This document shows positions 33,654-64,000 of a stretch of DNA of 64,000 bases, one piece after another. A program made the position numbers and the translations under genes. Origin of the DNA: Eledone cirrhosa (taxonomy: Eukaryota); contig CAXHJY010000713.1 of assembly GCA_964016885.1 (NCBI GenBank), positions 1 to 64,000 on the forward strand. Reading direction: 5' to 3'. Every line of letters begins with the position of its first letter. Position 1 is the first letter of the stretch. The notes under the pieces are model-generated. The model was not told where the DNA came from and did no database searches. It saw only the letters and a program-made list of their open reading frames with translations.

Positions 33654-33734
33654 AACTTATGTAAATCGAGCTAATTCAAAGACTTATGAACATAAACATC
33701 AACTACTGGCAGTGTATAAAATTGACAATAAAAT

Positions 33735-39720: not shown

Positions 39721-40016
39721 CCCATGCCACTATATATCTATATACATGGGTGCTATGATACAGAGGACTTGTAGCTGATGTATATAAAAGACCAGTTGTA
39801 TTTTATGCTGATCTACATGCTGGACATATAGTGAGTGGTACATATACCACATGTAGTAGTATATATAAAACTGCTATATAAATACAGGACATGTGGTTGT
39901 TGGTGTATATTATAACCGGTTGTTTATCAGTTTATAGTTATTGTCAATTTTACACACTGACAGTAATTGGATGTTTATATTTATAAGTCTTTGAAATATT
40001 TCGATATATATCTGTT

Positions 40017-40123
40017 GTCCGGATGGACGAGTGGGCTAAGGCGCCAGTCTCAATGTATAAAATCTTAACTAGAACAATGAATATTCTGGTCAAATAATGT
40101 GGGTTCGATTCCAACTGCTGGCA
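40017..40123 (+). pseudogene. Decayed tRNA-Leu pseudogene (edge unit)
   Basis: Many substitutions and the same 6-nt GTGGGC deletion as the array pseudogenes. Confidence 0.8.
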
Positions 40124-40339
40124 ATCTTTATTGTGCCATTAAGCCTTTATTTTGTTTGTGCAATTAAGAGTCATTTAAAACAAAACATTAAGTTTAATTA
40201 ATAAACGCTGCTTTTAAAATGAACATATCGCATTTCCAAAACATTTTATTCAAACTAAGGTGTAATCTTTGAATTGGTCTCATACTGGTGAGTTTTAACT
40301 AAGACAATGAGAGCTAAAACACCTCATGCTGATGACTGA

Positions 40340-40965
40340 AATGTCTTAATATACCTAATACTGGTCAGTCCTTGCTATAACCAAGACTCACTGAAACACA
40401 TAATACTGGGTAGTCCTTGCTATTCCTAAGACGTCTTAAGACACCTAATGTTGGTCAGTCTTTACTATAACCAAGACGTATTAAAACACACAATAATAGT
40501 CAGTCCTTGCTATAACTAAGACGTCTTAAGACACCTAATGCTGGTCAGTCATTACTATAACCAAGACGTATTAAAACACATAATACTGGTTAGTCCTTGC
40601 TATAACTAAGACACATAATGCTCGTTAGTCTTTACTATAACCAAGACGTATTAAAACACACAATACTGGCCAGTCCTTGCTATAACTAACACGTCTTAAG
40701 ACAACTAATGTTGGTCAGTCTTTACTATACAAGACGCATTAAAACACATAATAGTGGTTAGTCCTTGCTATAACTAAGACACCTAATGCTGGTTAGTCTT
40801 TACTATAAACAAAACGTATTAAAACACACAATACTGGTCAGTCCTTGCTATAATTAACACGTCTTAAGACACCTAATGCTAGTCAGTCTTTACTATAACC
40901 AAGATGTATTAAAACACATACTACTGATCAGCGCTTACTATAACCAATTCATCTTAACACATTAG
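40340..40965. repeat. 45-bp A/B minisatellite (GGTCAGTCCTTGCTATAACTAAGACGTCTTAAGACACCTAATGCT), expanded in the edge unit
   Basis: About 14 copies here versus roughly half that in later units; 33-bp deletion variants occur. Confidence 0.85.
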
Positions 40966-41093
40966 GCTCAAGGTGTAAACCTATAATTTATTTTATATAT
41001 ATTCTACACCATACAGTATATTGTCCATTTTACACACTGCCAGTAGTTGATGTTTATGTTCATATCTTTGAAATAATTCGTTATACCGCAGTT

Positions 41094-41206
41094 GTCAGGA
41101 TGGCCGAGCGGTCCAAGGCGCCAGACTCAAGGTGTAATACCTTAACCAGAACATTGAGTATTCTGGTCCACTAATGTGGGCGTGGGTTCGAATCCCACTT
41201 CTGACA
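41094..41206 (+). tRNA. trnL-CAA: tRNA-Leu(CAA), intron-containing (array unit 1)
   Basis: Intact 113-nt gene, TTTTT terminator. Confidence 0.93.
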
Positions 41207-42012
41207 AATTTTTGTTTTATGTAATTCTTATATTTCTCTCAACATATTTTACCTCTCAAATATATACGTTTCTTGTTTATGTATTTATCAGAGTGATATT
41301 CAGTCTTACTTTAAATAATTATATACAGAAACATGTGGTATCAGTTGTATATATGATAATTGGTTTTATATATGAAAACATTATATACACACAACATATA
41401 TCTATATACATGGGTGATATGATACAGAGGACTTGTAGCTTATGTATATAAAAGCACCAGTTGTATTTTATGCTGTTCTACATGCTGGACATGTAGTGTG
41501 TGGTACATATACCACATGTAAGAGTATATATAAAACTGCTATATATACAGGACATATGGTTGTTGGTGTATATTATAACTGTTTATAGTTATCAATTATA
41601 TTCATACAAATCAATTATTCATTACAACAAATTACAATATATTTTAATCATTATCAACCATAATTAATTATTAATATTCTCTCTCACTAATAAATCATTC
41701 TAAATTATCATATACTAAATACCTGTAGATACCTGGATAAGACATAATCTGATTTCCCATGTATGTTGTAATCTTTTTCTCTGCCGATGAGCAAGACGTC
41801 TTAAATACCTAATTCTGAAGACAAAGGTGTCTTAAAACATGTAACTCTGGTCAATTCTTACTAAGACAAAGATGTTGTAAGACCTCAAGGTGTAAATCTA
41901 TAATATAATTGATATGTATTCTACACCATCAGTATATTGTAATTTTTACACACTGACAGTAATTGGATGTTTATGTTTATAAGTCTTTGAAATATTTCAT
42001 CATACATCGGTT

Positions 42013-42118
42013 GTCAGGATGGCCGAGTGGTCTAAGGCGCAAACCACAGGTGTAACACTTTGACCAGAACATTGAGTTTTCTGGTCCACTAATGTGGTTT
42101 CGAATGCAGCTTCTGACA
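42013..42118 (+). pseudogene. tRNA-Leu pseudogene (unit 1)
   Basis: 106 nt; disrupted anticodon arm, 6-nt deletion at the T-stem. Confidence 0.85.
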
Positions 42119-42782
42119 ATTTTTTTGCGTCCATTAAGCCTTTATTTTGCTTGTGCAATTAAGAGTCATTTAAAACAAGACATTAACTTTAATTAATAAA
42201 CGCTGCTTTTAAAATGAACATATCGCATTTCCAAACATTTTATTCAAACTAATGTGCAATCTTTGAATTGGTCTCATACTGGTGTGTTTTAACTAAGTCA
42301 ATGAGAGATAAAACACCTCATGCTGATGACTAAAATGTCTTAATATACCTAATACTTGTCAGTTCTTGCTATAACTAAGACGTCTTAAGACACTTAATGT
42401 TGGTCAGTCTTTACTATACAAGACGGATTAAAACACATAATATTGGTTAGTCCTTGCTATAACTAAGACACCTAATGTTGGTTAGTCTTTACTATAAACA
42501 AGACGCATTAAAACACACAATATTGGTCAGTCCTTGCTATAACTAACACGTCTTAAGACACCTAATGATAGTCAGTCTTTACTATAACCAAGATGTATTA
42601 AAACACATACTACTGATCAGCGCTTACTATAACCAATACATCTTAACACACTAAGATGAAGGTGTAAATCTATAATTTATTTTATATGTATTCTACACCA
42701 TACAGTATATTGTCCATTTTACACACTGTCAGTAGTTGATGTTTATGTTCATATCTTTGAAATAATTCGTTATACCGCAGTT

Positions 42783-42895
42783 GTCAGGATGGCCGAGCGG
42801 TCCAAGGCGCCAGACTCAAGGTGTAGTACCTTATTCAGAACATTGAGTATTCTGGTCCACTAATGTGGGCGTGGGTTCGAATCCCACTTCTGACA
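42783..42895 (+). tRNA. trnL-CAA: tRNA-Leu(CAA) (unit 2)
   Basis: Intact exons; changes confined to the intron. Confidence 0.93.
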
Positions 42896-43701
42896 AATTT
42901 TTGTTTTATGTAATTCTTATATTTCTCTCAACATATTTTACCTCTCAAATATATACGTTTCTTGTTTATGTATTTATCAGAGTGATATTCAGTCTTACTT
43001 TAAATAATTATATACAGAAACATGTGGTATCAGTTGTATATATGATAATTGGTTTTATATATGAAAACATTATATACACACAACATATATCTATATACAT
43101 GGGTGATATGATACAGAGGAATTGTAGTTGATGTATATAAAAGCACCAGTTGTATTTTATGCTGTTCTACATGCTGGACATGTAGTGAGTGGTACATATA
43201 CCACATGTTGTAGTAGATATAAAACTGCTATATATACAGGACATGTGGTTGTTGGTGTATATTATAACTGTTTATACTGATCAATTATATTCATACAAAT
43301 CAATTATTCATTACAACAAATTACAATATATTTTAATCATTATCAACCATAATTAATTATTAATATGCTCTCTTACTAATAAGTCATTCTAAATTATCAT
43401 ATACTAAATACCTGTAGATACCTGGATAAGACATAATCTGATTTCCCATGTATGTGGTAATCTTTTTCTCTGCCGATGAGCAAGATGTCTTAAATACCTA
43501 ATTCTGAAGACAAAGGTGTCTTAAAACATGTAACTCTGGTCAATGCTTACTAAGACAAAGATGTTGTAAGACCCCAAGGTGTAAATCTATAATATAATTG
43601 ATATGAATTCTACACCATCAGTATATCGTAATTTTTACACACTGACAGTAATTGCATGTTTATGTTTATAAGTCTTTGAAATATTTCGTCATACATCGGT
43701 T

Positions 43702-43807
43702 GTCAGGATTGTCGAGTGGTCTAAGGCGCAAACCATAGGTGTTATACCTTGACCAGAACATTGAGTTTTCTGGTCCACTAATGTGGTTTCGAATGCAGCT
43801 TCTGACA
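43702..43807 (+). pseudogene. tRNA-Leu pseudogene (unit 2)
   Basis: Same lesions as unit 1. Confidence 0.85.
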
Positions 43808-44473
43808 ATTGTTTTGCGTCCATTAAGCCTTTATTTTGTTTGTGCAATTAAGAGTCATTTAAAACAAAACATTATGCTTAATTAATAAACGCTGCTTTTA
43901 AAATGAACATATCGCATTTCCAAACATTTTATTCAAACTAAGGTGCAATCTTTGAATTGGTCTCATACTGGTGAGTTTTAACTAAGTCAATGAGAGATAA
44001 AACACCTCATGCTGATGACTGAAATGTCTTAATATACCTAATACTTGTCAGTTCTTGCTATAAATGAGACGTCTTAAGACACTTAATGTTGGTCAGTCTT
44101 TACTATAACCAAGACGGATTAAAATACATAATACTGGTTAGTCCTTGCTATAACTAAGACACCTAATGTTGGTTAGTCTTTACTATAAACAAGACGTATT
44201 AAAACACACAATATTGGTTAGTCCTTGCTATAACTAACACGTCTTAAGACACCTAATGCTAGTCAGTCTTTACTATAACCAAGATGTATTAAAACACATA
44301 CTACTGATCAGCGCTTACTATAACCAATACATCTTAACACACTAAGCTGAAGGTGTAAACCTATAATTTATTTTATATGTATTCTACACCATACAGTATA
44401 TTGTCCATTTTACACACTGCCAGTAGTTGATGTTTATGTTCATGTCTTTGAAATAATTCGATGTACAGCAGTT

Positions 44474-44586
44474 GTCAGGATGGCCGAGCGGTCCAAGGCG
44501 CCAGACTCAAGGTGTAGTACCTTAACCAGAACATTGAGTATTCTGGTCCACTAATGTGGGCGTGGGTTCGAATCCCACTTCTGACA
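44474..44586 (+). tRNA. trnL-CAA: tRNA-Leu(CAA) (unit 3)
   Basis: Intact exons. Confidence 0.93.
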
Positions 44587-45391
44587 AATTTTTGTTTTAT
44601 GTAATTCTTATATTTCTCTCAACATATTTTACCTCTCAAATATATACGTTTCTTGTTTATGTATTTATCAGAGTGAAATTCAGGCTTACTTTAAATAATT
44701 ATATACAGAAACATGTGGTATCAGTTGTATATATGATAATTGGTTTTATATATGAAAACATTATATACACACACCATATATCTATATACATAGGTGATAT
44801 GATACAGAGGACATGTAGCAGATGTATATAAAAGCACCAGTTGTATGTTATGCTGTTCTACATACTGGACATGTAGTGAGTGGTACATATACCACATGTA
44901 GTAGTATATATAAAACTGCTATATATACAGGACATGTGGTTGTTGGTGTATATTATAACTGTTTATAGTTATCAATTATATTCATACAAATCAATTATTC
45001 ATTACAACAAATTACAATATATTTTAATCATTATCAACCATAATTAATTATTAATATTCGCTCTTACTAATAAATCATTCTAAATTATCATATACTAAAT
45101 ACCTGTAGATACCTGGAAAAGACATAATCTGATTTCCCATGTATGTTGTAATGTTTTTCTCTGCCGATGAGCAAGACGTCTTAAATACCTAATTCTGAAG
45201 ACAAAGGTGTCTTAAAACATGTAACTCTGGTCAATTCTTACTAAGACACAGATGTTGTAAGACCTCAAGGTGTAAATCTATAATATAATTGATATGTATT
45301 CTACACCATCAGTATATTGTCAATTTTACACACTGACAGTATTGGATGTTTATGTTTATAAGTCTTTGAAATATTTCGTCATACATCGGTT

Positions 45392-45479
45392 GTCAGGATA
45401 GCCGAGTCGTCTAAGGCGCCAACCACAGAACATTGAATATTCTTGTCCACTAATGTGGTTTCGAATCCACCCTCTGACA
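45392..45479 (+). pseudogene. tRNA-Leu pseudogene (unit 3) with an extra 18-nt deletion
   Basis: Deletion between CAG microhomologies. Confidence 0.85.
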
Positions 45480-46144
45480 ATTTTTTCGTGCCATTAAGCC
45501 TTTACTTTGTTTCTGCAATTAAGGGTCATTTAAAACAAAACATTAAGTTTAATTAATAAACGCTGCTTTTAAAATGAACATATCGCATTTCCAAACATTT
45601 TATTCAAACTAAGGTGCAATCTTTGAATTGGTCTCATACTGGTGAGTTTTAACTAAGACAATGAGAGATAAAACACCTCATGCTGATGACTGAAATGTTT
45701 TAATATACCTAATACTTGTCAGTTCTTGCTATAACTAAGACGTCTTAAGACACTTAATGTTGGTCAGTCTTTACTATAACCAAGACGCATTAAAACACAT
45801 AATACTAGTTAGTCCTTGCTATAACTAAGACACCTAATGCTGGTTAGTCTTTACTATAAACAAGACGTATTAAAACACACAATACTGGTCAGTCCTTGCT
45901 ACAACTGACACGTCTTAAGACACCTAATGATAGTCAGTCTTTACTATAACCAAGATATATTAAAACACATACTACTGATCAGCGCTTACTATAACCAATA
46001 CATCTTAACACACTAAGCTGAAGGTGTAAACCTATAATTTATTTTATATGTATTCTACACCATACAGTATATTGTCCATTTTACACACTGCCAGTAGTTG
46101 GTGTTTATGTTCATATCTTTGAAATAATTCGTTATACCGCAGTT

Positions 46145-46257
46145 GTCAGGATGGCCGAGCGGTCCAAGGCGCCAGACTCAAGGTGTAGTACCTTATCCAG
46201 AACATTGAGTATTCTGGTCCACTAATGTGGGCGTGGGTTCGAATCCCACTTCTGACA
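46145..46257 (+). tRNA. trnL-CAA: tRNA-Leu(CAA) (unit 4)
   Basis: Intact exons. Confidence 0.93.
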
Positions 46258-47061
46258 AATTTTTGTTTTATGTAATTCTTATATTTCTCTCAACATATTT
46301 TACCTCTCAAATATATACGTTTCTTGTTTATGTATTTATCAGAGTGAAATTCAGTCTTACTTTAAATAATTATATACAGAAACATGTGGTATCAGTTATA
46401 AATATGATAATTGGTTTTATATGTGAAAACATTATATACACACAACATATATCTATATACATGGGTGATATGATACAGAGGACTTGTAGCTGATGTATAT
46501 AAAAGCACCAGTTGTATTTTATGCTGTTCTACATGCTGGACATGTAGTGAGTGGTACATATACCACATGTAGTAGTATATATAAAACTTCTATATATACA
46601 GGACATGTGGTTGTTGGTGTATATTATAACTGTTTATAGTTATCAATTATATTCATACAAATCAATTATTCATTACAACAAATTACAATATATTTTAATC
46701 ATTATCAACCATAATTAATTATTAATATTCTCTCTTACTAATAAATCATTCTAAATTATCATATACTAAATACCTGTAGATACCTGGATAAGCCATAATG
46801 TTATGTCCCATGTATGTTGTAATGTTTTTCTCCGCCGACGAGCAAGACATCTTAAATACCTATTTCTGAAGACAAAGGTGTCTTAAAACATGTAACTGGT
46901 CAGTTCTTACTAAGACACAGATGTTGTAAGACCTCAAGGTGTAAATCTATAATATAATTGATATGAATTCTACACCATCAGTATATTGTAATTTTTACAC
47001 ACTGACAGTAATTGGATGTTTATGTTTATAAGTCTTTGAAATATTTCATCATACATCGGTT

Positions 47062-47167
47062 GTCAGGATGGCCGAGTCGTCTAAGGCGCCAACCACAGGT
47101 GTTATACCTTGACCAGAACATTGAGTTTTCTGGTCCACTAATGTGGTTTCGAATACTGCTTCTGACA
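47062..47167 (+). pseudogene. tRNA-Leu pseudogene (unit 4)
   Basis: Shared lesions; type Y. Confidence 0.85.
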
Positions 47168-47807
47168 ATTGTTTTGGGTCCATTAAGCCTTTATTTTGTT
47201 TGTGCAATTAAGAGTCATTTAAAACAAGACATTATGTTTAATTAATAAACGCTGCTTTTAAAATGAACATATCGCATTTCCAAACATTTTATTCAAACTA
47301 AGGTGCAACCTTTGAATTTGTCTCATACTGGTGTGTTTTAACTAAGACAATGAGAGATAAAACACCTCATACTGATGACTAAAATGTCATAATATACCTA
47401 ATACTGGTCTGTTCTTGCTATAACTAAGACGTCTTAAGACACTTAAGACGCATTAAAACACATAATACTGGGTAGACCTTGCTATAACTAAGACACCTAA
47501 TGTTGGTTAGTCTTTACTATAAACAAGACGTATTAAAACACACAATATTGGTCAGTCCTTGCTATAATTAACACGTCTTAAGACACCTAATGATAGTCAG
47601 TCTTTACTATAACCAAGATGTATTAAAACACATACTACTGATCAGCGCTTACTATAACCAATACATCTTAACACACTAAGCTGAAGGTGTAAACCTATAA
47701 TTTATTTTATATGTATTCTACACCATACAGTATAATGTCCATTTTACACACTGCCAGTAGTTGATGTTTATGTTCATGTCTTTGAAATAATTCGTTATAC
47801 CGCAGTT

Positions 47808-47920
47808 GTCGGGATGGCCGAGCGGTCCAAGGCGCCAGACTCAAGGTGTAGTACCTTAACCAGAACATTGAGTATTCTGGTCCACTAATGTGGGCGTGGG
47901 TTCGAATCCCACTTCTGACA
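47808..47920 (+). tRNA. trnL-CAA: tRNA-Leu(CAA) (unit 5), A4G variant
   Basis: GTCGGGA gives a G.U pair in the acceptor stem. Confidence 0.85.
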
Positions 47921-48726
47921 AATTTTTGTTTTATGTAATTCTTATATTTCTCTCAACATATTTTACCTCTCAAATATATACGTTTCTTGTTTATGTATTT
48001 ATCAGAGTGATATTCAGTCTTACTTTAAATACTTATATACAGAAACATGTGGTATCAGTTGTATATATGATAATTGGTTTTATATATGAAAACATTATAT
48101 ACACACAACATATATCTATATACATGGGTGATATGATACAGAGGACTTGTAGCTGATGTATATAAAAGCATCAGTTGTATTTTATGCTGTTCTACATGCT
48201 GGACATGTAGTGAGTGGTACATATACCACATGTAGTAGTATATATAAAACTGCTATATATACAGGACATGTGGTTGTTGGTGTATATTATAACTGTTTAT
48301 AGTTATCAATTATATTCATACAAATCAATTATTCATTACAACAAATTACAATATATTTTAATCATTATCAACCATAATTAATTATTAATATTCTCTCTTA
48401 CTAATAAATCATTCTAAATTATCATATACTAAATACCTGTAGATACCTGGATAAGACATAATCTGATTTCCCATGTATGTTGTAATGTTTTTCTCTGCCG
48501 ATGAGCAAGACGTCTTAAATACCTAATTCTGAAGACAAAGGTGTCTTAAAACATGTAACTCTGGTCAGTTCTTACTAAGACACAGATGTTGTAAGACCTC
48601 AAGATGTAAATCTATAATATAATTGATATGTATTCTACACCATCAGTATATTGTCAATTTTACACACTGACAGTAATTGGATGTTTATGTTTATAAGTCT
48701 TTGAAATATTTCGTCATACATCGGTT

Positions 48727-48832
48727 GTCAGGAATGTCGAGTGGTCTAAGGCGCAAACCACAGGTGTAATACTTTGACCAGAACATTGAGTTTTCTGGTC
48801 CACTAATGTGGTTTCGAATGCAGCTTCTGACA
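48727..48832 (+). pseudogene. tRNA-Leu pseudogene (unit 5)
   Basis: Shared lesions; type X. Confidence 0.85.
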
Positions 48833-49472
48833 ATTTTTTTGCGTCCATTAAGACTTTATTTTGCTTGTGCAATTAAGAGTCATTTAAAACAAAACATTAA
48901 CTTTAATTAATAAACGCTGCTTTTAAAATGAACATATCGCATTTCCAAACAATTTATTCAAATTAAGGCGCAATCTTTGAATTGGTCTCATACTGGTGAG
49001 TTTTAACTAAGACAATGAGAGCTAAAACACCTCATGCTGATGACTGAAATGTCTTAATATACCTAATATTGTTCTGTTCTTGCTATAACTAAGACGTCTT
49101 AAGACACTTAAGACGCATTAAAACACATAATACTGGGTAGACCTTGCTATAACTAAGACACCTAATGCTGGTTAGTCTTTACTATAAACAAGACGTATTA
49201 AAACACACAATACTGGTCAGTCCTTACTATAATTAACACGTCTAAAGACACCTAATGATAGTCAGTCTTTACTATAACCAAGATGTATTAAAACACATAC
49301 TACTGATCAGCGCTTACTATAACCAATACATCTTAACACACTAAGCTGAAGGTGTAAACCTATAATTTATTTTATATGTATTCTACACCATACAGTATAT
49401 TGTCCATTTTACACACTGCCTGTAGTTGATGTTTATGTTCATGTCTTTGAAATAATTCGTTATACCGCAGTT

Positions 49473-49585
49473 GTCAGGATGGCCGAGCGGTCCAAGGCGC
49501 CAGACTCAAGGTGTAATACCTTAACCAGAACATTGAGTATTCTGGTCCACTAATGTGGGCGTGGGTTCGAATCCCACTTCTGACA
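49473..49585 (+). tRNA. trnL-CAA: tRNA-Leu(CAA) (unit 6)
   Basis: Intact exons. Confidence 0.93.
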
Positions 49586-50389
49586 AATTTTTGTTTTATG
49601 TAATTCTTATATTTCTCTCAACATATTTTACCTCTCAAATATATACGTTTCTTGTTTATGTATTTATCAGAGTGATATTCAGTCTTACTTTAAATAATTA
49701 TATACAGAAACATGTGGTATCAGTTGTATATATGATAATTGGTTTTATATATGAAAACATTATATACACACAACATATATCTATATACATGGGTGATATG
49801 ATACAGAGGACTTGTAGCTGATGTATATAAAAGCACCAGTTGTATTTTATGCTGTTCTACATGCTGGACATGTAGTGAGTGGTACATATACCACATGTAG
49901 TAGTATATAAAAAACTGCTATATATACAGGACATGTGGTTGTTGGTGTATATTATAACTGTTTATAGTTAGCAATTATATTCATACAAATCAATTATTCA
50001 TTACAACAAATTACAATATATTTTAATCATTATCAACCATAATTAATTATTAATATTCTCTCTTACTAATAAATCATTCTAAATTATCATATACTAAATA
50101 CCTGTAGATACCTGGATAAGCCATAATGTTATGTCCCATGTATGTTGTAATGTTTTTCTCCGCCGACGAGCAAGACATCTTAAATACCTATTTCTGAAGA
50201 CAAAGGTGTCTTAAAACATGTAACTGGTCAGTTCTTACTAAGACACAGATGTTGTAAGACCTCAAGGTGTAAATCTATAATATAATTGATATGAATTCTA
50301 CACCATCAGTATATTGTAATTTTTACACACTGACAGTAATTGGATGTTTATGTTTATAAGTCTTTGAAATATTTCATCATACATCGGTT

Positions 50390-50495
50390 GTCAGGATGGC
50401 CGAGTCGTCTAAGGCGCCAACCACAGGTGTTATACCTTGACCAGAACATTGAGTTTTCTGGTCCACTAATGTGGTTTCGAATACTGCTTCTGACA
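50390..50495 (+). pseudogene. tRNA-Leu pseudogene (unit 6)
   Basis: Type Y. Confidence 0.85.
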
Positions 50496-52913: not shown

Positions 52914-53716
52914 ATTTGTTTTATGTAATTCTTATATTTCTCTCAACATATTTTACCTCTTAAATATATACGTTTCTTGTTTATGTATTTATCAGAGTGA
53001 TATTCAGTCTTACTTTAAATAATTATATACAGAAACATGTGGTATCAGTTGTATATATGATAATTGGTTTTATATATGAAAACATTATATACACACAACA
53101 TATATCTATATACATGGGTGATATGATACAGAGGACTTGTAGCTGATGTATATAAAAGCACCAGTTGTATTTTATGCTGTTCTACATGCTGGACATGTAG
53201 TGAGTGGTACATATACTACATGTAGTAGTATATATAAAACTGCTATATATACAGGACATGTGGTTGTTGGTGTATATTATAACTGTTTATAGTTATCAAT
53301 TATATTCATACAAATCAATTATTCATTACAACAAATTACAATATATTTTAATCATTATCAACCATAATTAATTATTAATATTCTCTCTTACTAATAAATC
53401 ATTCTAAATTATCATATACTAAATACCTGTAGATACCTGGATAAGACATAATCTGATTTCCCATGTATGTTGTAATGTTTTTCTCTGCCGATGAGCAAGA
53501 CGTCTTAAATACCTAATTCTGAAGACAAAGGTCTTTTAAAACATGTAACTCTGGTCAGTTCTTACTAAGACACAGATGTTGTAAGACCTCAAGGTGTAAA
53601 TCTATAATATAATTGATATGAATTCTACACCATCAGTATATTGTAATTTTTACACACTGACAGTAATTGGATGTTTATGTTTATAAGTCTTTGAAATATT
53701 TCGTCATACATCGGTT

Positions 53717-53822
53717 GTCAGGATTGTCGAGTGGTCTAAGGCGCCAACCACAGGTGTAATACCTTGACCAGATCATTGAGTTTTCTGGTCCACTAATGTG
53801 GTTTCGAATGCAGCTTCTGACA
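53717..53822 (+). pseudogene. tRNA-Leu pseudogene (unit 8)
   Basis: Type Z. Confidence 0.85.
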
Positions 53823-54462
53823 ATTGTTTTGGGTCCATCAAGCCTTTATTTTGCTTGTGCAATTAAGAGTCATTTAAAACTAAACATTATGTTTAATTAA
53901 TAAACGCTGCTTTTAAAATGAACATATCGCACTTCGAAACAATTTATTCAAACTAAGGTGCAACCTTTGAATTTGTCTCATACTGGTGTGTTTTAACTAA
54001 GACAATGAGAGATAAAACACCTCATACTGATAACTAAAATGTCATAATATACCTAATACTGGTCTGTTCTTGCTATAACTAAGACGTCTTAAGACACTTA
54101 AGACGCATTAAAACACATAATACTGGGTAGACCTTGCTATAACTAAGACACCTAATGTTGGTTAGTCTTTACTATAAACAAGACGTATTAAAACACACAC
54201 TATTGGTCAGTCCTTGCTATAATTAACACGTCTTAAGACACCTAATGATAGTCAGTCTTTACTATAACCAAGATGTATTAAAACACATACTACTGATCAG
54301 CGCTTACTATAACCAATACATCTTAACACACTAAGCTGAAGGTGTAAACCTATAATTTATTTTATATGTATTCTCCACCATACAGTATAATGTCCATTTT
54401 ACACAATGCCAGTAGTTGATGTTTATGTTCATGTCTTTGAAATAATTCGTTATACCGCAGTT

Positions 54463-54575
54463 GTCAGGATGGCCGAGCGGTCCAAGGCGCCAGACTCAAG
54501 GTGTAATACCTTAACCAGAACATTGAGTGTTCTGGTCCACTAATGTGGGCGTGGGTTCGAATCCCACTACTGACA
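54463..54575 (+). tRNA. trnL-CAA: tRNA-Leu(CAA) (unit 9), acceptor-stem mismatch
   Basis: 3' end CCCACTACTGACA gives a G.A mismatch; may be impaired. Confidence 0.75.
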
Positions 54576-55381
54576 AATTTTTGTTTTATGTAATTCTTAT
54601 ATTTCTCTCAACATATTTTACCTCTCAAATATATACGTTTCTTGTTTATGTATTTATCAGAGTGATATTCAGTCTTACTTTAAATACTTATATACAGAAA
54701 CATGTGGTATCAGTTGTATATATGATAATTGGTTTTATATATGAAAACATTATATACACACAACATATATCTATATACATGGGTGATATGATACAGAGGA
54801 CTTGTAGCTGATGTATATAAAAGCACCAGTTGTATTTTATGCTGTTCTACATGCTGGACATGTAGTGAGTGGTACATATACCACATGTAGTAGTATATAA
54901 AAAACTGCTATATATACAGGACATGTGGTTGTTGGTGTATATTATAACTGTTTATAGTTATCAATTATATTCATACAAATCAATTATTCATTACAACAAA
55001 TTACAATATATTTTAATCATTATCAACCATAATTAATTATTAATATTCTCTCTTACTAATAAATCATTCTAAATTATCATATACTAAATACCTGTAGATA
55101 CCTGGATAAGACATAATCTGATTTCCCATGTATGTTGTAATGTTTTTCTCTGCCGATGAGCAAGACGTCTTAAATACCTAATTCTGAAGACAAAGGTGTC
55201 TTAAAACATGTAACTCTGGTCAGTTCTTACTAAGACACAGATGTTGTAAGACCTCAAGATGTAAATCTATAATATAATTGATATGTATTCTACACCATCA
55301 GTATATTGTCAATTTTACACACTGACAGTAATTGGATGTTTATGTTTATAAGTCTTTGAAATATTTCGTCATACATCGGTT

Positions 55382-55487
55382 GTCAGGAATGTCGAGTGGT
55401 CTAAGGCGCAAACCACAGGTGTAATACTTTGACCAGAACATTGAGTTTTCTGGTCCACTAATGTGGTTTCGAATGCAGCTTCTGACA
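55382..55487 (+). pseudogene. tRNA-Leu pseudogene (unit 9)
   Basis: Type X. Confidence 0.85.
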
Positions 55488-56127
55488 ATTTTTTTGCGTC
55501 CATTAAGACTTTATTTTGCTTGTGCAATTAAGAGTCATTTAAAACAAAACATTAACTTTAATTAATAAACGCTGCTTTTAAAATGAACATATCGCATTTC
55601 CAAACAATTTATTCAAATTAAGGCGCAATCTTTGAATTGGTCTCAAACTGGTGAGTTTTAACTAAGACAATGAGAGCTAAAACACCTCATGCTGATGACT
55701 GAAATGTCTTAATATACCTAATATTGTTCTGTTCTTGCTATAACTAAGACGTCTTAAGACACTTAAGACGCATTAAAACACATAATACTGGGTAGACCTT
55801 GCTATAACTAAGACACCTAATGCTGGTTAGTCTTTACTATAAACAAGACGTATTAAAACACACAATACTGGTCAGTCCTTACTATAATTAACACGTCTAA
55901 AGACACCTAATGATAGTCAGTCTTTACTATAACCAAGATGTATTAAAACACATACTACTGATCAGCGCTTACTATAACCAATACATCTTAACACACTAAG
56001 CTGAAGGTGTAAACCTATAATTTATTTTATATCTATTCTACACCATACAGTATATTGTCCATTTTACACACTGCCAGTAGTTGATGTTTATGTTCATGTC
56101 TTTGAAATAATTCGTTATACCGCAGTT

Positions 56128-56240
56128 GTCAGGATGGCCGAGCGGTCCAAGGCGCCAGACTCAAGGTGTAGTACCTTATCCAGAACATTGAGTATTCTGG
56201 TCCACTAATGTGGGCGTGGGTTCGAATCCCACTTCTGACA
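56128..56240 (+). tRNA. trnL-CAA: tRNA-Leu(CAA) (unit 10)
   Basis: Intact exons. Confidence 0.93.
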
Positions 56241-57046
56241 AATTTTTGTTTTATGTAATTCTTATATTTCTCTCAACATATTTTACCTCTCAAATATATA
56301 CGTTTCTTGTTTATGTATTTATCAGAGTGATATTCAGTCTTACTTTAAATAATTATATACAGAAACATGTGGTATCAGTTGTATATATGATAATTGGTTT
56401 TATATATGAAAACATTATATACACACAACATATATCTATATACATGGGTGATATGATACAGAGGACTTGTAGCTTATGTATATAAAAGCACCAGTTGTAT
56501 TTTATGCTGTTCTACATGCTGGACATGTAGTGAGTGGTACATATACCACATGTAGTAGTATATATAAAACTGCTATATATACAGGACATGTGGTTGTTGG
56601 TGTATATTATAACTGTTTATAGTTATCAATTATATTCATACAAATCAATTATTCATTACAACAAATTACAATATATTTTAATCATTATCAACCATAATTA
56701 ATTATTAATATTCTCTCTTACTAATAAATCATTCTAAATTATCATATACTAAATACCTGTAGATACCTGGATAAGACATAATCTGATTTCCCATGTATGT
56801 TGTAATGTTTTTCTCTGCCGATGAGCAAGACGTCTTAAATACCTAATTCTGAAGACAAAGGTCTTTTAAAACATGTAACTCTGGTCAGTTCTTACTAAGA
56901 CACAGATGTTGTAAGACCTCAAGGTGTAAATCTATAATATAATTGATATGAATTCTACACCATCAGTATATTGTAATTTTTACACACTGACAGTAATTGG
57001 ATGTTTATGTTTATAAGTCTTTGAAATATTTCGTCATACATCGGTT

Positions 57047-57152
57047 GTCAGGATTGTCGAGTGGTCTAAGGCGCCAACCACAGGTGTAATACCTTGACCA
57101 GATCATTGAGTTTTCTGGTCCACTAATGTGGTTTCGAATGCAGCTTCTGACA
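57047..57152 (+). pseudogene. tRNA-Leu pseudogene (unit 10)
   Basis: Type Z. Confidence 0.85.
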
Positions 57153-57792
57153 ATTTTTTTGGGTCCATCAAGCCTTTATTTTGCTTGTGCAATTAAGAGT
57201 CATTTAAAACTAAACATTATGTTTAATTAATAAACGCTGCTTTTAAAATGAACATATCGCACTTCGAAACAATTTATTCAAACTAAGGTGCAACCTTTGA
57301 ATTTGTCTCATACTGGTGTGTTTTAACTAAGACAATGAGAGATAAAACACCTCATACTGATGACTAAAATGTCATAATATACCTAATACTGGTCTGTTCT
57401 TGCTATAACTAAGACGTCTTAAGACACTTAAGACGCATTAAAACACATAAGACTGGGTAGACCTTGCTATAACTAAGACACCTAATGTTGGTTAGTCTTT
57501 ACTATAAACAAAACGTATTAAAACACACAATATTGGTCAGTCCTTGCTATAATTAACACGTCTTAAGACACCTAATGATAGTCAGTCTTTACTATAACCA
57601 AGATGTATTAAAACACATACTACTGATCAGCGCTTACTATAACCAATACATCTTAACACACTAAGCTGAAGGTTTAAACCTATAATTTATTTTATATGTA
57701 TTCTACACCATACAGTATATTGTCCATTTTACACACTGCCAGTAGTTGATGTTTATGTTCATGTCTTTGAAATAATTCGTTATACCGCAGTT

Positions 57793-57905
57793 GTCAGGAT
57801 GGCCGAGCGGTCTAAGGCGCCAGACTCAAGGTGTAGTACCTTAACCAGAACATTGAGTATTCTGGTCCACTAATGTGGGCGTGGGTTCGAATCCCACTTC
57901 TGACA
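57793..57905 (+). tRNA. trnL-CAA: tRNA-Leu(CAA) (unit 11)
   Basis: Intact; GGTCTAAG variant. Confidence 0.93.
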
Positions 57906-58708
57906 ATTTGTTTTATGTAATTCTTATATTTCTCTCAACATATTTTACCTCTCAAATATATACGTTTCTTGTTTATGTATTTATCAGAGTGATATTCAGT
58001 CTTACTTTAAATAATTATATACAGAAACATGTGGTATCAGTTGTATATATGATAATTGGTTTTATATATGAAAACATTATATACACACAACATATATCTA
58101 TATACATGGGTGATATGATACAGAGGACTTGTAGCTGATGTATATAAAAGCACCAGTTGTATTTTATGCTGTTCTACATGCTGGACATGTAGTGAGTGGT
58201 ACATATACCACATGTAGTAGTATATAAAAAACTGCTATATATACAGGACATGTGGTTGTTGGTGTATATTATAACTGTTTATAGTTAGCAATTATATTCA
58301 TACAAATCAATTATTCATTACAACAAATTACAATATATTTTAATCATTATCAACCATAATTAATTATTAATATTCTCTCTTACTAATAAATCATTCTAAA
58401 TTATCATATACTAAATACCTGTAGATACCTGGATAAGACATAATCTGATTTCCCATGTATGTTGTAATGTTTTTCTCTGCCGATGAGCAAGACGTCTTAA
58501 ATACCTAATTCTGAAGACAAAGGTGTCTTAAAACATGTAACTCTGGTCAGTTCTTACTAAGACACAGATGTTGTAAGACCTCAAGATGTAAATCTATAAT
58601 ATAATTGATATGTATTCTACACCATCAGTATATTGTCAATTTTACACACTGACAGTAATTGGATGTTTATGTTTATAAGTCTTTGAAATATTTCGTCATA
58701 CATCGGTT

Positions 58709-58814
58709 GTCAGGAATGTCGAGTGGTCTAAGGCGCAAACCACAGGTGTAATACTTTGACCAGAACATTGAGTTTTCTGGTCCACTAATGTGGTTTCGAA
58801 TGCAGCTTCTGACA
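58709..58814 (+). pseudogene. tRNA-Leu pseudogene (unit 11)
   Basis: Type X. Confidence 0.85.
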
Positions 58815-59454
58815 ATTTTTTTGAGTCCATTAAGACTTTATTTTGCTTGTGCAATTAAGAGTCATTTAAAACAAAACATTAACTTTAATTAATAAACGCT
58901 GCTTTTAAAATGAACATATCGCATTTCCAAACAATTTATTCAAATTAAGGCGCAATCTTTGAATTGGTCTCAAACTGGTGAGTTTTAACTAAGACAATGA
59001 GAGCTAAAACACCTCATGCTGATGACTGAAATGTCTTAATATACCTAATATTGTTCTGTTCTTGCTATAACTAAGACGTCTTAAGACACTTAAGACGCAT
59101 TAAAACACATAATACTGGGTAGACCTTGCTATAACTAAGACACCTAATGCTGGTTAGTCTTTACTATAAACAAGACGTATTAAAACACACAATACTGGTC
59201 AGTCCTTACTATAATTAACACGTCTAAAGACACCTAATGATAGTCAGTCTTTACTATAACCAAGATGTATTAAAACACATACTACTGATCAGCGCTTACT
59301 ATAACCAATACATCTTAACACACTAAGCTGAAGGTGTAAACCTATAATTTATTTTATATGTATTCTACACCATACAGTATATTGTCCATTTTACACACTG
59401 CCAGTAGTTGATGTTTATGTTCATGTCTTTGAAATAATTCGTTATACCGCAGTT

Positions 59455-59567
59455 GTCAGGATGGCCGAGCGGTCCAAGGCGCCAGACTCAAGGTGTAGTA
59501 CCTTATCCAGAACATTGAGTATTCTGGTCCACTAATGTGGGCGTGGGTTCGAATCCCACTTCTGACA
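59455..59567 (+). tRNA. trnL-CAA: tRNA-Leu(CAA) (unit 12)
   Basis: Intact exons. Confidence 0.93.
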
Positions 59568-60373
59568 AATTTTTGTTTTATGTAATTCTTATATTTCTCT
59601 CAACATATTTTACCTCTCAAATATATACGTTTCTTGTTTATGTATTTATCAGAGTGATATTCAGTCTTACTTTAAATAATTATATACAGAAACATGTGGT
59701 ATCAGTTGTATATATGATAATTGGTTTTATATATGAAAACATTATATACACACAACATATATCTATATACATGGGTGATATGATACAGAGGACTTGTAGC
59801 TTATGTATATAAAAGCACCAGTTGTATTTTATGCTGTTCTACATGCTGGACATGTAGTGAGTGGTACATATACCACATGTAGTAGTATATATAAAACTGC
59901 TATATATACAGGACATGTGGTTGTTGGTGTATATTATAACTGTTTATAGTTATCAATTATATTCATACAAATCAATTATTCATTACAACAAATTACAATA
60001 TATTTTAATCATTATCAACCATAATTAATTATTAATATTCTCTCTTACTAATAAATCATTCTAAATTATCATATACTAAATACCTGTAGATACCTGGATA
60101 AGACATAATCTGATTTCCCATGTATGTTGTAATGTTTTTCTCTGCCGATGAGCAAGACGTCTTAAATACCTAATTCTGAAGACAAAGGTCTTTTAAAACA
60201 TGTAACTCTGGTCAGTTCTTACTAAGACACAGATGTTGTAAGACCTCAAGGTGTAAATCTATAATATAATTGATATGAATTCTACACCATCAGTATATTG
60301 TAATTTTTACACACTGACAGTAATTGGATGTTTATGTTTATAAGTCTTTGAAATATTTCGTCATACATCGGTT

Positions 60374-60479
60374 GTCAGGATTGTCGAGTGGTCTAAGGCG
60401 CCAACCACAGGTGTAATACCTTGACCAGATCATTGAGTTTTCTGGTCCACTAATGTGGTTTCGAATGCAGCTTCTGACA
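60374..60479 (+). pseudogene. tRNA-Leu pseudogene (unit 12)
   Basis: Type Z. Confidence 0.85.
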
Positions 60480-61119
60480 ATTTTTTTGGGTCCATCAAGC
60501 CTTTATTTTGCTTGTGCAATTAAGAGTCATTTAAAACTAAACATTATGTTTAATTAATAAACGCTGCTTTTAAAATGAACATATCGCACTTCGAAACAAT
60601 TTATTCAAACTAAGGTGCAACCTTTGAATTTGTCTCATACTGGTGTGTTTTAACTAAGACAATGAGAGATAAAACACCTCATACTGATGACTAAAATGTC
60701 ATAATATACCTAATACTGGTCTGTTCTTGCTATAACTAAGACGTCTTAAGACACTTAAGACGCATTAAAACACATAAGACTGGGTAGACCTTGCTATAAC
60801 TAAGACACCTAATGTTGGTTAGTCTTTACTATAAACAAAACGTATTAAAACACACAATATTGGTCAGTCCTTGCTATAATTAACACGTCTTAAGACACCT
60901 AATGATAGTCAGTCTTTACTATAACCAAGATGTATTAAAACACATACTACTGATCAGCGCTTACTATAACCAATACATCTTAACACACTAAGCTGAAGGT
61001 TTAAACCTATAATTTATTTTATATGTATTCTACACCATACAGTATATTGTCCATTTTACACACTGCCAGTAGTTGATGTTTATGTTCATGTCTTTGAAAT
61101 AATTCGTTATACCGCAGTT

Positions 61120-61232
61120 GTCAGGATGGCCGAGCGGTCTAAGGCGCCAGACTCAAGGTGTAGTACCTTAACCAGAACATTGAGTATTCTGGTCCACTAA
61201 TGTGGGCGTGGGTTCGAATCCCACTTCTGACA
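61120..61232 (+). tRNA. trnL-CAA: tRNA-Leu(CAA) (unit 13)
   Basis: Intact; GGTCTAAG variant. Confidence 0.93.
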
Positions 61233-62035
61233 ATTTGTTTTATGTAATTCTTATATTTCTCTCAACATATTTTACCTCTCAAATATATACGTTTCTTGTT
61301 TATGTATTTATCAGAGTGATATTCAGTCTTACTTTAAATAATTATATACAGAAACATGTGGTATCAGTTGTATATATGATAATTGGTTTTATATATGAAA
61401 ACATTATATACACACAACATATATCTATATACATGGGTGATATGATACAGAGGACTTGTAGCTGATGTATATAAAAGCACCAGTTGTATTTTATGCTGTT
61501 CTACATGCTGGACATGTAGTGAGTGGTACATATACCACATGTAGTAGTATATAAAAAACTGCTATATATACAGGACATGTGGTTGTTGGTGTATATTATA
61601 ACTGTTTATAGTTAGCAATTATATTCATACAAATCAATTATTCATTACAACAAATTACAATATATTTTAATCATTATCAACCATAATTAATTATTAATAT
61701 TCTCTCTTACTAATAAATCATTCTAAATTATCATATACTAAATACCTGTAGATACCTGGATAAGACATAATCTGATTTCCCATGTATGTTGTAATGTTTT
61801 TCTCTGCCGATGAGCAAGACGTCTTAAATACCTAATTCTGAAGACAAAGGTGTCTTAAAACATGTAACTCTGGTCAGTTCTTACTAAGACACAGATGTTG
61901 TAAGACCTCAAGATGTAAATCTATAATATAATTGATATGTATTCTACACCATCAGTATATTGTCAATTTTACACACTGACAGTAATTGGATGTTTATGTT
62001 TATAAGTCTTTGAAATATTTCGTCATACATCGGTT

Positions 62036-62141
62036 GTCAGGAATGTCGAGTGGTCTAAGGCGCAAACCACAGGTGTAATACTTTGACCAGAACATTGAGT
62101 TTTCTGGTCCACTAATGTGGTTTCGAATGCAGCTTCTGACA
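62036..62141 (+). pseudogene. tRNA-Leu pseudogene (unit 13)
   Basis: Type X. Confidence 0.85.
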
Positions 62142-62781
62142 ATTTTTTTGAGTCCATTAAGACTTTATTTTGCTTGTGCAATTAAGAGTCATTTAAAACA
62201 AAACATTAACTTTAATTAATAAACGCTGCTTTTAAAATGAACATATCGCATTTCCAAACAATTTATTCAAATTAAGGCGCAATCTTTGAATTGGTCTCAA
62301 ACTGGTGAGTTTTAACTAAGACAATGAGAGCTAAAACACCTCATGCTGATGACTGAAATGTCTTAATATACCTAATATTGTTCTGTTCTTGCTATAACTA
62401 AGACGTCTTAAGACACTTAAGACGCATTAAAACACATAATACTGGGTAGACCTTGCTATAACTAAGACACCTAATGCTGGTTAGTCTTTACTATAAACAA
62501 GAAGTATTAAAACACACAATACTGGTCAGTCCTTACTATAATTAACACGTCTAAAGACACCTAATGATAGTCAGTCTTTACTATAACCAAGATGTATTAA
62601 AACACATACTACTGATCAGCGCTTACTATAACCAATACATCTTAACACACTAAGCTGAAGGTGTAAACCTATAATTTATTTTATATCTATTCTACACCAT
62701 ACAGTATATTGTCCATTTTACACACTGCCAGTAGTTGATGTTTATGTTCATGTCTTTGAAATAATTCGTTATACCGCAGTT

Positions 62782-62894
62782 GTCAGGATGGCCGAGCGGT
62801 CCAAGGCGCCAGACTCAAGGTGTAGTACCTTATCCAGAACATTGAGTATTCTGGTCCACTAATGTGGGCGTGGGTTCGAATCCCACTTCTGACA
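62782..62894 (+). tRNA. trnL-CAA: tRNA-Leu(CAA) (unit 14)
   Basis: Intact exons. Confidence 0.93.
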
Positions 62895-63700
62895 AATTTT
62901 TGTTTTATGTAATTCTTATATTTCTCTCAACATATTTTACCTCTCAAATATATACGTTTCTTGTTTATGTATTTATCAGAGTGATATTCAGTCTTACTTT
63001 AAATAATTATATACAGAAACATGTGGTATCAGTTGTATATATGATAATTGGTTTTATATATGAAAACATTATATACACACAACATATATCTATATACATG
63101 GGTGATATGATACAGAGGACTTGTAGCTGATGTATATAAAAGCACCCGTTGTATTTTATGCTGTTCTACATGCTGGACATGTAGTGAGTGGTACATATAC
63201 CACATGTAGTAGTATATATAAAACTGCTATATATACAGGACATGTGGTTGTTGGTGTATATTATAACTGTTTATAGTTATCAATTATATTCATACAAATC
63301 AATTATTCATTACAACAAATTACAATATATTTTAATCATTATCAACCATAATTAATTATTAATATTCTCTCTTACTAATAAATCATTCTAAATTATCATA
63401 TACTAAATACCTGTAGATACCTGGATAAGACATAATCTGATTTCCCATGTATGTTGTAATGTTTTTCTCTGCCGATGAGCAAGACGTCTTAAATACCTAA
63501 TTCTGAAGACAAAGGTGTCTTAAAACATGTAACTCTGGTCAGTTCTTACTAAGACACAGATGTTGTAAGACCTCAAGATGTAAATCTATAATATAATTGA
63601 TATGTATTCTACACCATCAGTATATTGTCAATTTTACACACTGACAGTAATTGGATGTTTATGTTTATAAGTCTTTGAAATATTTCGTCATACATCGGTT

Positions 63701-63806
63701 GTCAGGAATGTCGAGTGGTCTAAGGCGCAAACCACAGGTGTAATACTTTGACCAGAACATTGAGTTTTCTGGTCCACTAATGTGGTTGCGAATGCAGCTT
63801 CTGACA
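63701..63806 (+). pseudogene. tRNA-Leu pseudogene (unit 14)
   Basis: Type X with a further B-box change. Confidence 0.85.
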
Positions 63807-64000
63807 ATTTTTTTGCGTCCATTAAGACTTTATTTTGCTTGTGCAATTAAGAGTCATTTAAAACAAAACATTAACTTTAATTAATAAACGCTGCTTTTAA
63901 AATGAACATATCGCATTTCCAAACAATTTATTCAAATTAAGGCGCAATCTTTGAATTGGTCTCAAACTGGCGAGTTTTAACTAAGACAATGAGAGCTAAA

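What the first reader, a model, noticed from the sequence alone, without database searches (positions are those of the whole stretch)
39731..64000. Single-isoacceptor tRNA macrosatellite: obligate gene-plus-pseudogene pair amplified at least 14 times
Seen: each ~1.66-kb unit has an intact intron-containing tRNA-Leu(CAA), with variation concentrated in the intron and one D-loop site. About 0.92 kb downstream is a same-strand copy with fixed lesions (scrambled anticodon arm, 6-nt deletion) that keeps A-box-like and GGTTTCGAAT B-box-like sequence, the upstream flank and a T-run. A short-repeat block separates them. Known: tRNA tandem arrays with internal short repeats exist (e.g. Entamoeba), and tDNAs can act as TFIIIC insulators. 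Inference: dosage amplification of the UUG decoder, or a structural Pol III/TFIIIC domain in which the pseudogene may give a tRNA-like ncRNA or extra TFIIIC site.
Basis: partly seen in the sequence, partly recalled or inferred. Interest (0 to 1): 0.7.

Follow-up and report, generated by a model that had tools for sequence, protein, structure and literature searches.

The report
tRNA array carrying a passenger pseudogene
A leucine tRNA gene and a broken copy of it were duplicated together 33 times in a row; the broken copy is likely a passenger that is still decaying, and other leucine tRNA genes of this genome are stacked the same way, so this looks like an ordinary tRNA gene array.

Summary
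The array is real. It holds 34 intron-containing tRNA-Leu(CAA) genes (14 in the window) in 33 units of about 1,665 bp, with non-array DNA on both sides (contig 39.7-96.4 kb). Read depth roughly fits that size.

The gene exons are conserved: 1 of 84 bases differs from a second Leu(CAA) cluster, against about 15% in the flanks.

The pseudogene is not conserved. It varies at 21 of 106 sites against 4 of 84 in the exons (p=0.002). 33 of 34 copies fail the B-box core, and it differs from the gene as much as their duplicated 5' flanks do.

The pair is not obligate. A second Leu(CAA) array carries different pseudogenes, a Leu(CAG) array carries other broken copies, and a Leu(TAG)+Leu(AAG) array has two intact genes per unit. 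Amplification is therefore not UUG-specific.

Best reading: a two-gene piece of an older cluster, one gene already dead, was multiplied by unequal crossing-over and the pseudogene hitch-hiked. Precedents: Arabidopsis Tyr-Tyr-Ser, human 1q23.3 and Hydractinia tRNA arrays; amphibian 5S gene-plus-pseudogene repeats. No RNA or chromatin data were available. My look-ups in the scan's earlier notes found no such array on other DNA.

The parts
39732..64000 (+). In-window part of the tandem array (partial first unit from 39732; continues to contig position 96,391; 33 full units of 1,662-1,863 bp)
39732..41093 (+). Degenerate left-edge unit: spacer remnant, pseudogene 40017-40123 (6-nt deletion, B-box core still intact), long short-repeat block 40339-40947
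41094..41206 (+). tRNA-Leu(CAA) gene, unit 1 (exon 1 41094-41131, intron 41132-41160, exon 2 41161-41206), followed by a T5 run; further copies start at 42783, 44474, 46145, 47808, 49473, 51136, 52801, 54463, 56128, 57793, 59455, 61120, 62782
42013..42118 (+). Pseudogene, unit 1 (6-nt deletion, 1-nt deletion and substitutions in the anticodon arm, G53T, C61G); further copies start at 43702, 45392 (extra 18-nt deletion), 47062, 48727, 50390, 52055, 53717, 55382, 57047, 58709, 60374, 62036, 63701
56128..57792 (+). One representative unit (1,665 bp): gene 1-113, AT-rich spacer, pseudogene 920-1025, spacer, 45-bp short-repeat block about 1238-1530, 5' flank of the next gene
57365..57657 (+). Short-repeat block of 35/45/90-bp subunits in the representative unit (coordinates carried over from an aligned unit of the same length)
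56918..57046 (+). 5' flank of the pseudogene, a duplicate of the gene's 5' flank (16-19 differences in 127 aligned bases)
30152..35408 (.). Older irregular cluster of 9 Leu(CAA) genes and relics on both strands, sharing flanks and short-repeat remnants with the array unit: likely the kind of substrate from which the unit was captured

Best explanation
This is a 33-unit tandem array of a tRNA-Leu(CAA) gene in which every unit also carries a broken older duplicate that is likely a neutral passenger, multiplied with the gene by what was likely unequal crossing-over. SHOWN: the unit is itself an old two-gene duplication (shared 5' flank and short-repeat remnant); one half has lost 6 nt between two GTGG repeats plus anticodon-arm and promoter bases; units at the edges are the most diverged, and groups of central units are identical; gene and pseudogene alleles recombine; the exons, not the pseudogene, are conserved. 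INFERRED order: (1) local duplications built an irregular Leu(CAA) cluster like the one at 30-35 kb; (2) one copy died by a slippage-type deletion and kept decaying; (3) a 1.66-kb gene+relic segment became the register for unequal exchange and expanded recently; (4) selection acts on the pool of working genes only, and the relic persists because whole units are copied. The intact genes are predicted to be Pol III-transcribed and spliced into the UUG-decoding tRNA; which copies are active is untested.
For: Pseudogene 21 of 106 sites segregating vs exons 4 of 84 (Fisher p=0.002) and non-repeat spacer 118 of 1,153 (p=0.005, pseudogene MORE variable) over 33 units. Gene vs pseudogene 16-17 of 106 differences, their 5' flanks 16-19 of 127. 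B-box core GWTCRANNC (recalled motif) present in 1 of 34 pseudogene copies; an A-box pattern (recalled) in 5 of 34. The lost bases G53 and C61 are among those listed as crucial for tauB binding in PMC11724288 (passage); consensus GGTTCGANTCC from PMC3395662 (passages). Array gene vs 14 intact genes of the C1 cluster: exons 1 of 84 different in all 14, 5' flanks 18-20 of 118, 3' flanks 14-18 of 115-120. All four gene-allele x pseudogene-type combinations occur (13/9/3/3). Edge units U01-U03 and U33 differ from the other units by 42-71 bases, while 8 central units are identical. The C1:325.60-325.66 Mb Leu(CAA) cluster has a 3.74-kb unit with 2 intact and 2 differently broken copies, and none of its 43 listed copies has the 6-nt deletion. 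The Leu(CAG) array has about 4-kb units with 2 intact and up to 3 decayed copies; the C4 array has about 24 units of Leu(TAG)+Leu(AAG). Arabidopsis precedent: unit conserved during neutral unequal crossing-over, with pseudogenes and divergent ends (PMC2886086 abstract and section 22).
Against: No RNA, ChIP or methylation data were available, so the pseudogene's silence and the genes' activity are both inferred. The pseudogene still matches 9 of 11 B-box consensus positions and keeps C56-G57-A58 in all 34 copies. No unit has lost its pseudogene (33 of 33). Within the young array the exon constraint is weak: exons vs non-repeat spacer p=0.13 over 33 units and p=1.0 over the 27 central units; p=0.02 only after adjusting for base composition and counting the repeat block as spacer. 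Sites are not independent in these tests. Exon identity between clusters could partly reflect gene conversion, not selection. In the 27 central units the pseudogene-vs-exon contrast is not significant (12 of 106 vs 4 of 84, p=0.12). The pseudogene is more variable than a neutral spacer average would predict (21 observed, 12.5 expected, p=0.018), although no more than the 212 bp right behind it; this is unexplained.
Confidence: 0.82

Rival explanations
1. Selected dosage amplification of the UUG decoder: the array was expanded and is kept long because the animal needs more tRNA-Leu(CAA).
For: 33 of the 64 exact Leu(CAA) 17-mer matches in the genome lie in this array. 64 is more than the roughly 25-30 copies seen for each other Leu isoacceptor in the stretches I fetched. 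30 of 34 genes have intact stems.
Against: All three other Leu anticodon types examined are amplified the same way. The counts for them are lower bounds: 45 of 145 matches were not listed and only parts of the clusters were fetched. 31 further Leu(CAA)-type loci exist outside the array. No link of copy number to codon use was found in Arabidopsis (PMC2886086 section 22) or Entamoeba (PMC2652664 passage). Codon usage was not tested here.
Confidence: 0.08
2. Structural Pol III/TFIIIC domain: the pseudogene is kept as an extra TFIIIC site, or as the source of a tRNA-like RNA, and the array acts as a boundary or insulator.
For: Present in 33 of 33 units; keeps 9 of 11 B-box positions including C56, the 5' flank and a T-run. 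A tRNA VNTR has been proposed as a boundary element in human (PMC4041453 abstract), there through a CTCF motif.
Against: G53 is lost in 33 of 33 units and C61 in 31 of 33; 3 of the 12 B-box-region sites segregate, including T54G in 4 units. Yeast ETC sites have a conserved, extended B box (PMC3395662 passages), the opposite of what is seen. Two units have lost a further 18 nt. The type-B pseudogene folds with no cloverleaf. Other arrays carry unrelated relics.
Confidence: 0.05
3. Wholly neutral, silent satellite that happens to contain tRNA sequence; the genes look intact only because the expansion is recent.
For: Exons are not significantly less variable than spacer among the 27 central units (p=1.0). 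4 of 34 genes already carry structural damage, one such variant in two units.
Against: Unit subtypes differ by 33-59 bases, yet 29 of 34 mature sequences fall in two haplotypes that differ at one D-loop base. Exons differ from the C1 cluster at 1 of 84 bases while flanks differ by about 15%. All 5 CpGs of the gene are kept in the reference unit.
Confidence: 0.04
4. Assembly artefact: a few copies were over-expanded, or the contig is a duplicate haplotype of the C1 cluster.
For: Unplaced 119-kb contig; several units are base-for-base identical.
Against: Contig depth of the conserved spacer is about 35-44 times that of adjacent flank contigs in 3 runs of one sample. The right flank has no near-identical second locus among the 40 scored matches. 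No long colinear match to the C1 region. Units form a structured set of haplotypes.
Confidence: 0.01

Closest known systems
Arabidopsis chromosome 1 tRNA Ser-Tyr-Tyr array, 27 triplet units (Kane, Freeling, Lyons 2010; PMC2886086; abstract and section 22 read)
   Same: Multi-gene tRNA unit copied whole about 30 times; unequal crossing-over and concerted evolution; non-functional members carried; most divergent units at the ends; copy number read as neutral.
   Different: There the unit has three genes of two isotypes and pseudogenes are scattered, mostly at the ends; here one slot of every unit was already dead before expansion.
Amphibian 5S rDNA gene-plus-pseudogene repeats: newt Notophthalmus (PMC2111863, abstract passage) and Xenopus laevis oocyte 5S DNA, the first pseudogene described (named in PMC3352212, passages; the unit layout with an AT-rich short-repeat spacer is recalled, the original paper was not read)
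   Same: Pol III gene followed by a same-strand pseudogene inside each tandem unit, amplified together.
   Different: 5S rRNA with a type 1 promoter rather than a tRNA with A/B boxes; the pseudogene lies close behind the gene (36 bp long and immediately downstream in the newt) rather than 0.8 kb away; recalled copy numbers in Xenopus are far higher.
Human 1q23.3 tRNA VNTR (Darrow and Chadwick 2014; PMC4041453, abstract read)
   Same: Macrosatellite of tRNA genes of similar copy number (9-43 units); only the genes are conserved over time.
   Different: 7.3-kb GC-rich unit with several tRNA genes and a conserved CTCF motif; here a 1.66-kb AT-rich unit with one gene and one relic. Copy-number variation is shown there and untested here.
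Hydractinia and Nematostella ncRNA tandem arrays (PMC11067881, passages)
   Same: Invertebrate genome in which tRNA genes sit in evenly spaced arrays of tens of near-identical copies with long, near-identical spacers.
   Different: Reported for all 20 amino acids there; here only leucine tRNAs were examined. Pseudogene passengers are not mentioned in the passages seen.
Entamoeba tRNA arrays (PMC2652664, start of abstract and passages)
   Same: tRNA genes in tandem units with short tandem repeats between them.
   Different: Those arrays make up over 10% of the genome and show no clear pseudogenes; this one is 57 kb of a 3.0-Gb genome with a relic in every unit.

Membership tests
Eukaryotic intron-containing tRNA-Leu(CAA) gene | Cloverleaf with CAA anticodon and long variable arm after removal of an intron 3' of position 37 | tested here: met
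   Rfam RF00005 45-48 bits for 14 of 14 in-window genes; fold of the spliced form; 30 of 34 with all tested stems paired; intron-less copy at C17 confirms the junction
Eukaryotic intron-containing tRNA-Leu(CAA) gene | Internal A and B boxes and a downstream T-run | tested here: met
   GGTTCGAATCC in 34 of 34 mature sequences; a run of at least 4 T within 12 bp in 34 of 34
Eukaryotic intron-containing tRNA-Leu(CAA) gene | Transcribed, spliced and charged | not testable with these tools
   No RNA holder was listed
Tandem tRNA gene array under concerted evolution (Arabidopsis / 1q23.3 type) | Head-to-tail near-identical units with long spacers, homogeneous centre and divergent ends, recombinant units | tested here: met
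Tandem tRNA gene array under concerted evolution (Arabidopsis / 1q23.3 type) | Genes conserved while spacers diverge | tested here: met
   Between clusters 1 of 84 vs 14-20 of 115-120; within the array only weakly so
Tandem tRNA gene array under concerted evolution (Arabidopsis / 1q23.3 type) | Copy number varies between individuals | tested here: inconclusive
   RAD-seq runs of 3 other samples hold reads on the unit (49-144 reads each) but cannot give copy number
Extra-TFIIIC (ETC) site | Intact and conserved (extended) B box | tested here: not met
   Core present in 1 of 34 pseudogene copies; G53 and C61 lost; 3 of 12 sites segregate
Extra-TFIIIC (ETC) site | TFIIIC bound without Pol III | not testable with these tools
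   Needs ChIP
Entamoeba-type STR-containing tRNA array | Short tandem repeats between genes in the unit | tested here: met
   35/45/90-bp repeat block in each unit
Entamoeba-type STR-containing tRNA array | Arrays make up a large part of the genome and lack pseudogenes | tested here: not met
   57 kb of 3.0 Gb; a pseudogene in 33 of 33 units
5S-type gene-plus-pseudogene Pol III repeat (works-like comparison) | Same-strand pseudogene of the unit's own gene in every repeat | tested here: met
   the gene is a tRNA, so this is an analogue and not a member

The most novel reading that the evidence does not exclude
The decayed copy is still loaded by Pol III machinery through its residual A/B boxes. 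Its excess variability would then be transcription-associated mutagenesis without selection, and the array would release a deletion-marked tRNA-like RNA or act as a TFIIIC sink whose size scales with a single, copy-variable locus that holds half of the animal's UUG-decoding genes.
Probability: 0.06. Interest if true: 0.55.

Novelty: new member of a known kind. Interest (0 to 1): 0.2.

Why it matters
As it stands it is a clean, bounded example of a dead gene copy frozen into a repeat unit and carried along by concerted evolution, with an internal control (gene, relic and spacer in the same unit). It also shows that leucine tRNA genes of this probably octopod genome are largely held in tandem arrays, which my one cephalopod search (listing only) did not show described. 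Because about half of the Leu(CAA)-type loci sit in one array, variation in tRNA gene dosage between individuals is easy to test. None of this needs new biology.

Tried and rejected
tRNA-Met(CAT) identity: ARAGORN's label comes from a different intron placement; rejected on the fold, the Rfam alignment and the intron-less C17 copy. ARAGORN without introns found 0 genes. Pseudogene as a recoded tRNA: at a relaxed threshold only the unit-1 copy was called (Ser), plus the edge copy (Ile); the type-B copy has no cloverleaf; rejected. Collapsed giant satellite: array bounded on both sides and depth ratio about 35-44; rejected. Haplotype duplicate of the C1 cluster: rejected. Expression: no RNA holder listed; this is no evidence either way. 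Copy number in other individuals: RAD-seq reads are few, and 72-86% of them run on unlike the unit; not usable. Transcription-associated mutagenesis at the gene's 5' flank: 4 segregating sites in the 20 bp before the gene vs 1 before the pseudogene, all four singletons; too few to use. Methylation from CpG content: unit o/e 0.54, gene 5 CpGs, pseudogene 3; uninformative. The genome-wide Rfam tRNA search scored only 63 of 552,091 candidates and gave no census. TTG codon usage and orthologous loci in other species were not tested (no annotation and no relatives held). Papers: mouse-strain tRNA paper PMC13169703, PMC2888827, PMC5340908 and PMC3342222 were seen as passages and added little; PMC13010820 abstract only; the NSUN2 search was seen as a listing only. 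Supplements were not consulted. Scan look-ups by place, words and sequence returned no eukaryotic full-gene array of this kind.


Full report
WHAT IS THERE. The window is the first 64 kb of an unplaced 118,860-bp contig (C740) of a 3.0-Gb animal assembly. It is probably an octopod: this is my inference from genome size and microsatellite load, echoed by other scan notes, and was not tested. Rfam finds 19 tRNA genes in the window: 14 in the array and 5 in an irregular cluster at 30.1-35.4 kb. BLAST adds the pseudogenes. With the rest of the contig the array resolves to 34 genes (41,094-96,391) and 33 full units of 1,662-1,863 bp, 21 of them exactly 1,665. It starts with a partial unit at 39,732 and ends in non-array DNA. 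The spacer query finds 33 near-identical copies, all on this contig; the other listed matches are partial, 79-86% alike, and lie in the C1 cluster.

SIZE CHECK. In three runs of one sample, which may be the assembly's own source, contigs of the conserved spacer have depth 234, 461-491 and 298-300, against 6.0-7.3, 10.7-11.7 and 7.3-7.8 for flank contigs: about 35, 41-44 and 39-40 fold. The tool warns that such depth is not a copy number, and a heterozygous flank would halve the estimate; it does argue against a large collapse or over-expansion. The right flank has no near-identical second locus among 40 scored matches. RAD-seq reads of three other samples fall on the unit, and two of them show both pseudogene subtypes at very low depth.

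THE GENE. It is tRNA-Leu(CAA) with a 29-nt intron after G37. The spliced form folds into a cloverleaf with a long variable arm. The intron contains TTGAG, complementary to the anticodon loop, and its 5 variable sites lie outside that stretch. An intron-less truncated copy on C17 confirms the junction. Of 34 mature sequences, 22 and 7 belong to two haplotypes that differ at one D-loop base, 1 has a G-U wobble change, 3 have an acceptor-stem mismatch, and the last copy has two changes including C32G. Against 14 intact genes of a second cluster on C1, exons differ at 1 of 84 bases in every case, introns at 1-4 of 29, and flanks at 14-20 of 115-120. The exons are thus constrained over time, or converted. 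Within the young array alone the signal is weak: p=0.13 over all units, p=1.0 over the central 27, p=0.02 after composition adjustment.

THE PSEUDOGENE. The unit is an old two-gene duplication: positions 791-1032 match the next gene with its 5' flank at 81.6% over 250 bp. The dead half lost 6 nt between two GTGG repeats, removing the 5' strand of the T stem, and then kept changing. The edge copy at 40017 still has the B-box core. Units 3 and 33 have G53T and an extra 18-nt deletion. Units 4 and 6 have C61A, and the other 29 have C61G. Over 33 units 21 of 106 sites segregate, against 4 of 84 in exons (p=0.002) and 118 of 1,153 in non-repeat spacer (p=0.005); among the 27 central units the contrast with exons is 12 vs 4 (p=0.12). 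Gene and pseudogene differ at 16-17 of 106 bases, their flanks at 16-19 of 127. The B-box core (recalled pattern GWTCRANNC) is present in 1 of 34 copies and an A-box pattern (recalled) in 5 of 34. PMC3395662 gives the consensus GGTTCGANTCC and describes ETC sites as conserved extended B boxes (passages). PMC11724288 lists G53 and the template guanines at 56, 61 and 62 as crucial (passage). Against my reading: 9 of 11 consensus positions and C56 are kept, no unit has lost the relic, and its variability exceeds the composition-adjusted spacer expectation (21 vs 12.5, p=0.018), though it equals that of the 212 bp behind it (37 sites).

THE PAIR IS NOT OBLIGATE. Within the array all four combinations of gene-intron allele and main pseudogene type occur (13, 9, 3, 3), so exchange happens between the two. 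At C1:325.60-325.66 Mb a second Leu(CAA) cluster has 43 listed copies, 22 called by ARAGORN, with a 3.74-kb unit of two intact and two differently broken copies; none has the 6-nt deletion. At C1:153.75 Mb a Leu(CAG) array repeats about 4-kb units with two intact and up to three decayed copies. At C4:285.85 Mb about 24 units of 2.15 kb hold Leu(TAG)+Leu(AAG), both intact, with 5-6 more at C4:306.84 Mb. Whatever lay inside the duplicated segment was carried along, dead or alive. Of 64 exact matches to the Leu(CAA) 17-mer in the genome, 33 are in this array, 6 just upstream, 19 in the C1 cluster and 6 dispersed. The counts for other isoacceptors are partial: I fetched only parts of their clusters, and 45 of 145 matches were not listed.

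HOW IT MOST LIKELY AROSE AND WORKS. Shown: divergent edge units (42-71 differences from other units), two main subtypes about 41 bases apart that alternate at the left and give way to runs, eight identical central units, and the same rare pseudogene deletion near both ends (units 3 and 33). Inferred: repeated unequal crossing-over, with the centre expanded most recently, as modelled for the Arabidopsis array (PMC2886086, abstract and section 22). The genes are predicted to supply UUG-decoding tRNA; how many are active is unknown, as no RNA run was listed.

COMPARISON AND VERDICT. Tandem tRNA arrays are known from Arabidopsis, human 1q23.3 (PMC4041453 abstract), Hydractinia and Nematostella (PMC11067881 passages) and Entamoeba (PMC2652664 passages). 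A Pol III gene amplified with its own pseudogene is the amphibian 5S arrangement (PMC2111863 abstract passage; PMC3352212 passages; details of the Xenopus unit recalled). I did not see a cephalopod tRNA array, or a tRNA array with a dead slot in every unit, in the listings; these were three word searches and do not establish absence. New member of a known kind; interest 0.2.

Noticed in passing
window 4-12535: A 12.5-kb satellite of about 504 copies of a 25-bp unit with all its G on the + strand and 331 TTAGGG words. The G-rich strand reads inward from the contig start, the opposite of a terminal telomere; it may form G-quadruplexes.
   Followed up: no
window 39133-39729 (-): 198-aa open frame with a weak GIY-YIG match (Pfam PF01541, E=0.008, below the cut-off), likely the end of a Penelope-like retroelement. 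It ends 2 bp before the array's first partial unit and may have truncated that unit.
   Followed up: partly
window 30152-35408: Irregular cluster of 9 Leu(CAA) genes and relics in both orientations, with short-repeat remnants at 32431-32572.
   Followed up: partly
L028-L032 (C1:153.75-153.80 Mb): Leu(CAG) array whose unit includes copies with the anticodon changed to TAG (and one to CGT) on a Leu(CAG) body with stem mismatches: anticodon-shifted relics amplified with the unit.
   Followed up: partly
L019-L027 (C4:285.85-285.91 Mb and 306.84-306.85 Mb): Two arrays of a 2.15-kb Leu(TAG)+Leu(AAG) unit, 97.7-100% identical among the 15 units compared; the two genes differ by a compensatory acceptor-stem pair.
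   Followed up: partly
L036 (C17:24,374,712): Intron-less, 3'-truncated Leu(CAA) copy beside a (TG)/(TA) microsatellite: likely a retro-copy of spliced tRNA.
   Followed up: partly
L004:2886-3145 and window about 31470-31620: Very high-copy short element (summed contig depth about 2 million vs about 7 for the flank), by eye a tRNA-derived SINE; the window stretch looks similar but was not aligned.
   Followed up: no
window 57047-57364 and the same part of each unit: Variation between units is concentrated from the pseudogene to the repeat block (0.17-0.20 sites per base) and low behind the gene (0.05-0.09); exchanges seem to fall near the gene. Unexplained.
   Followed up: partly
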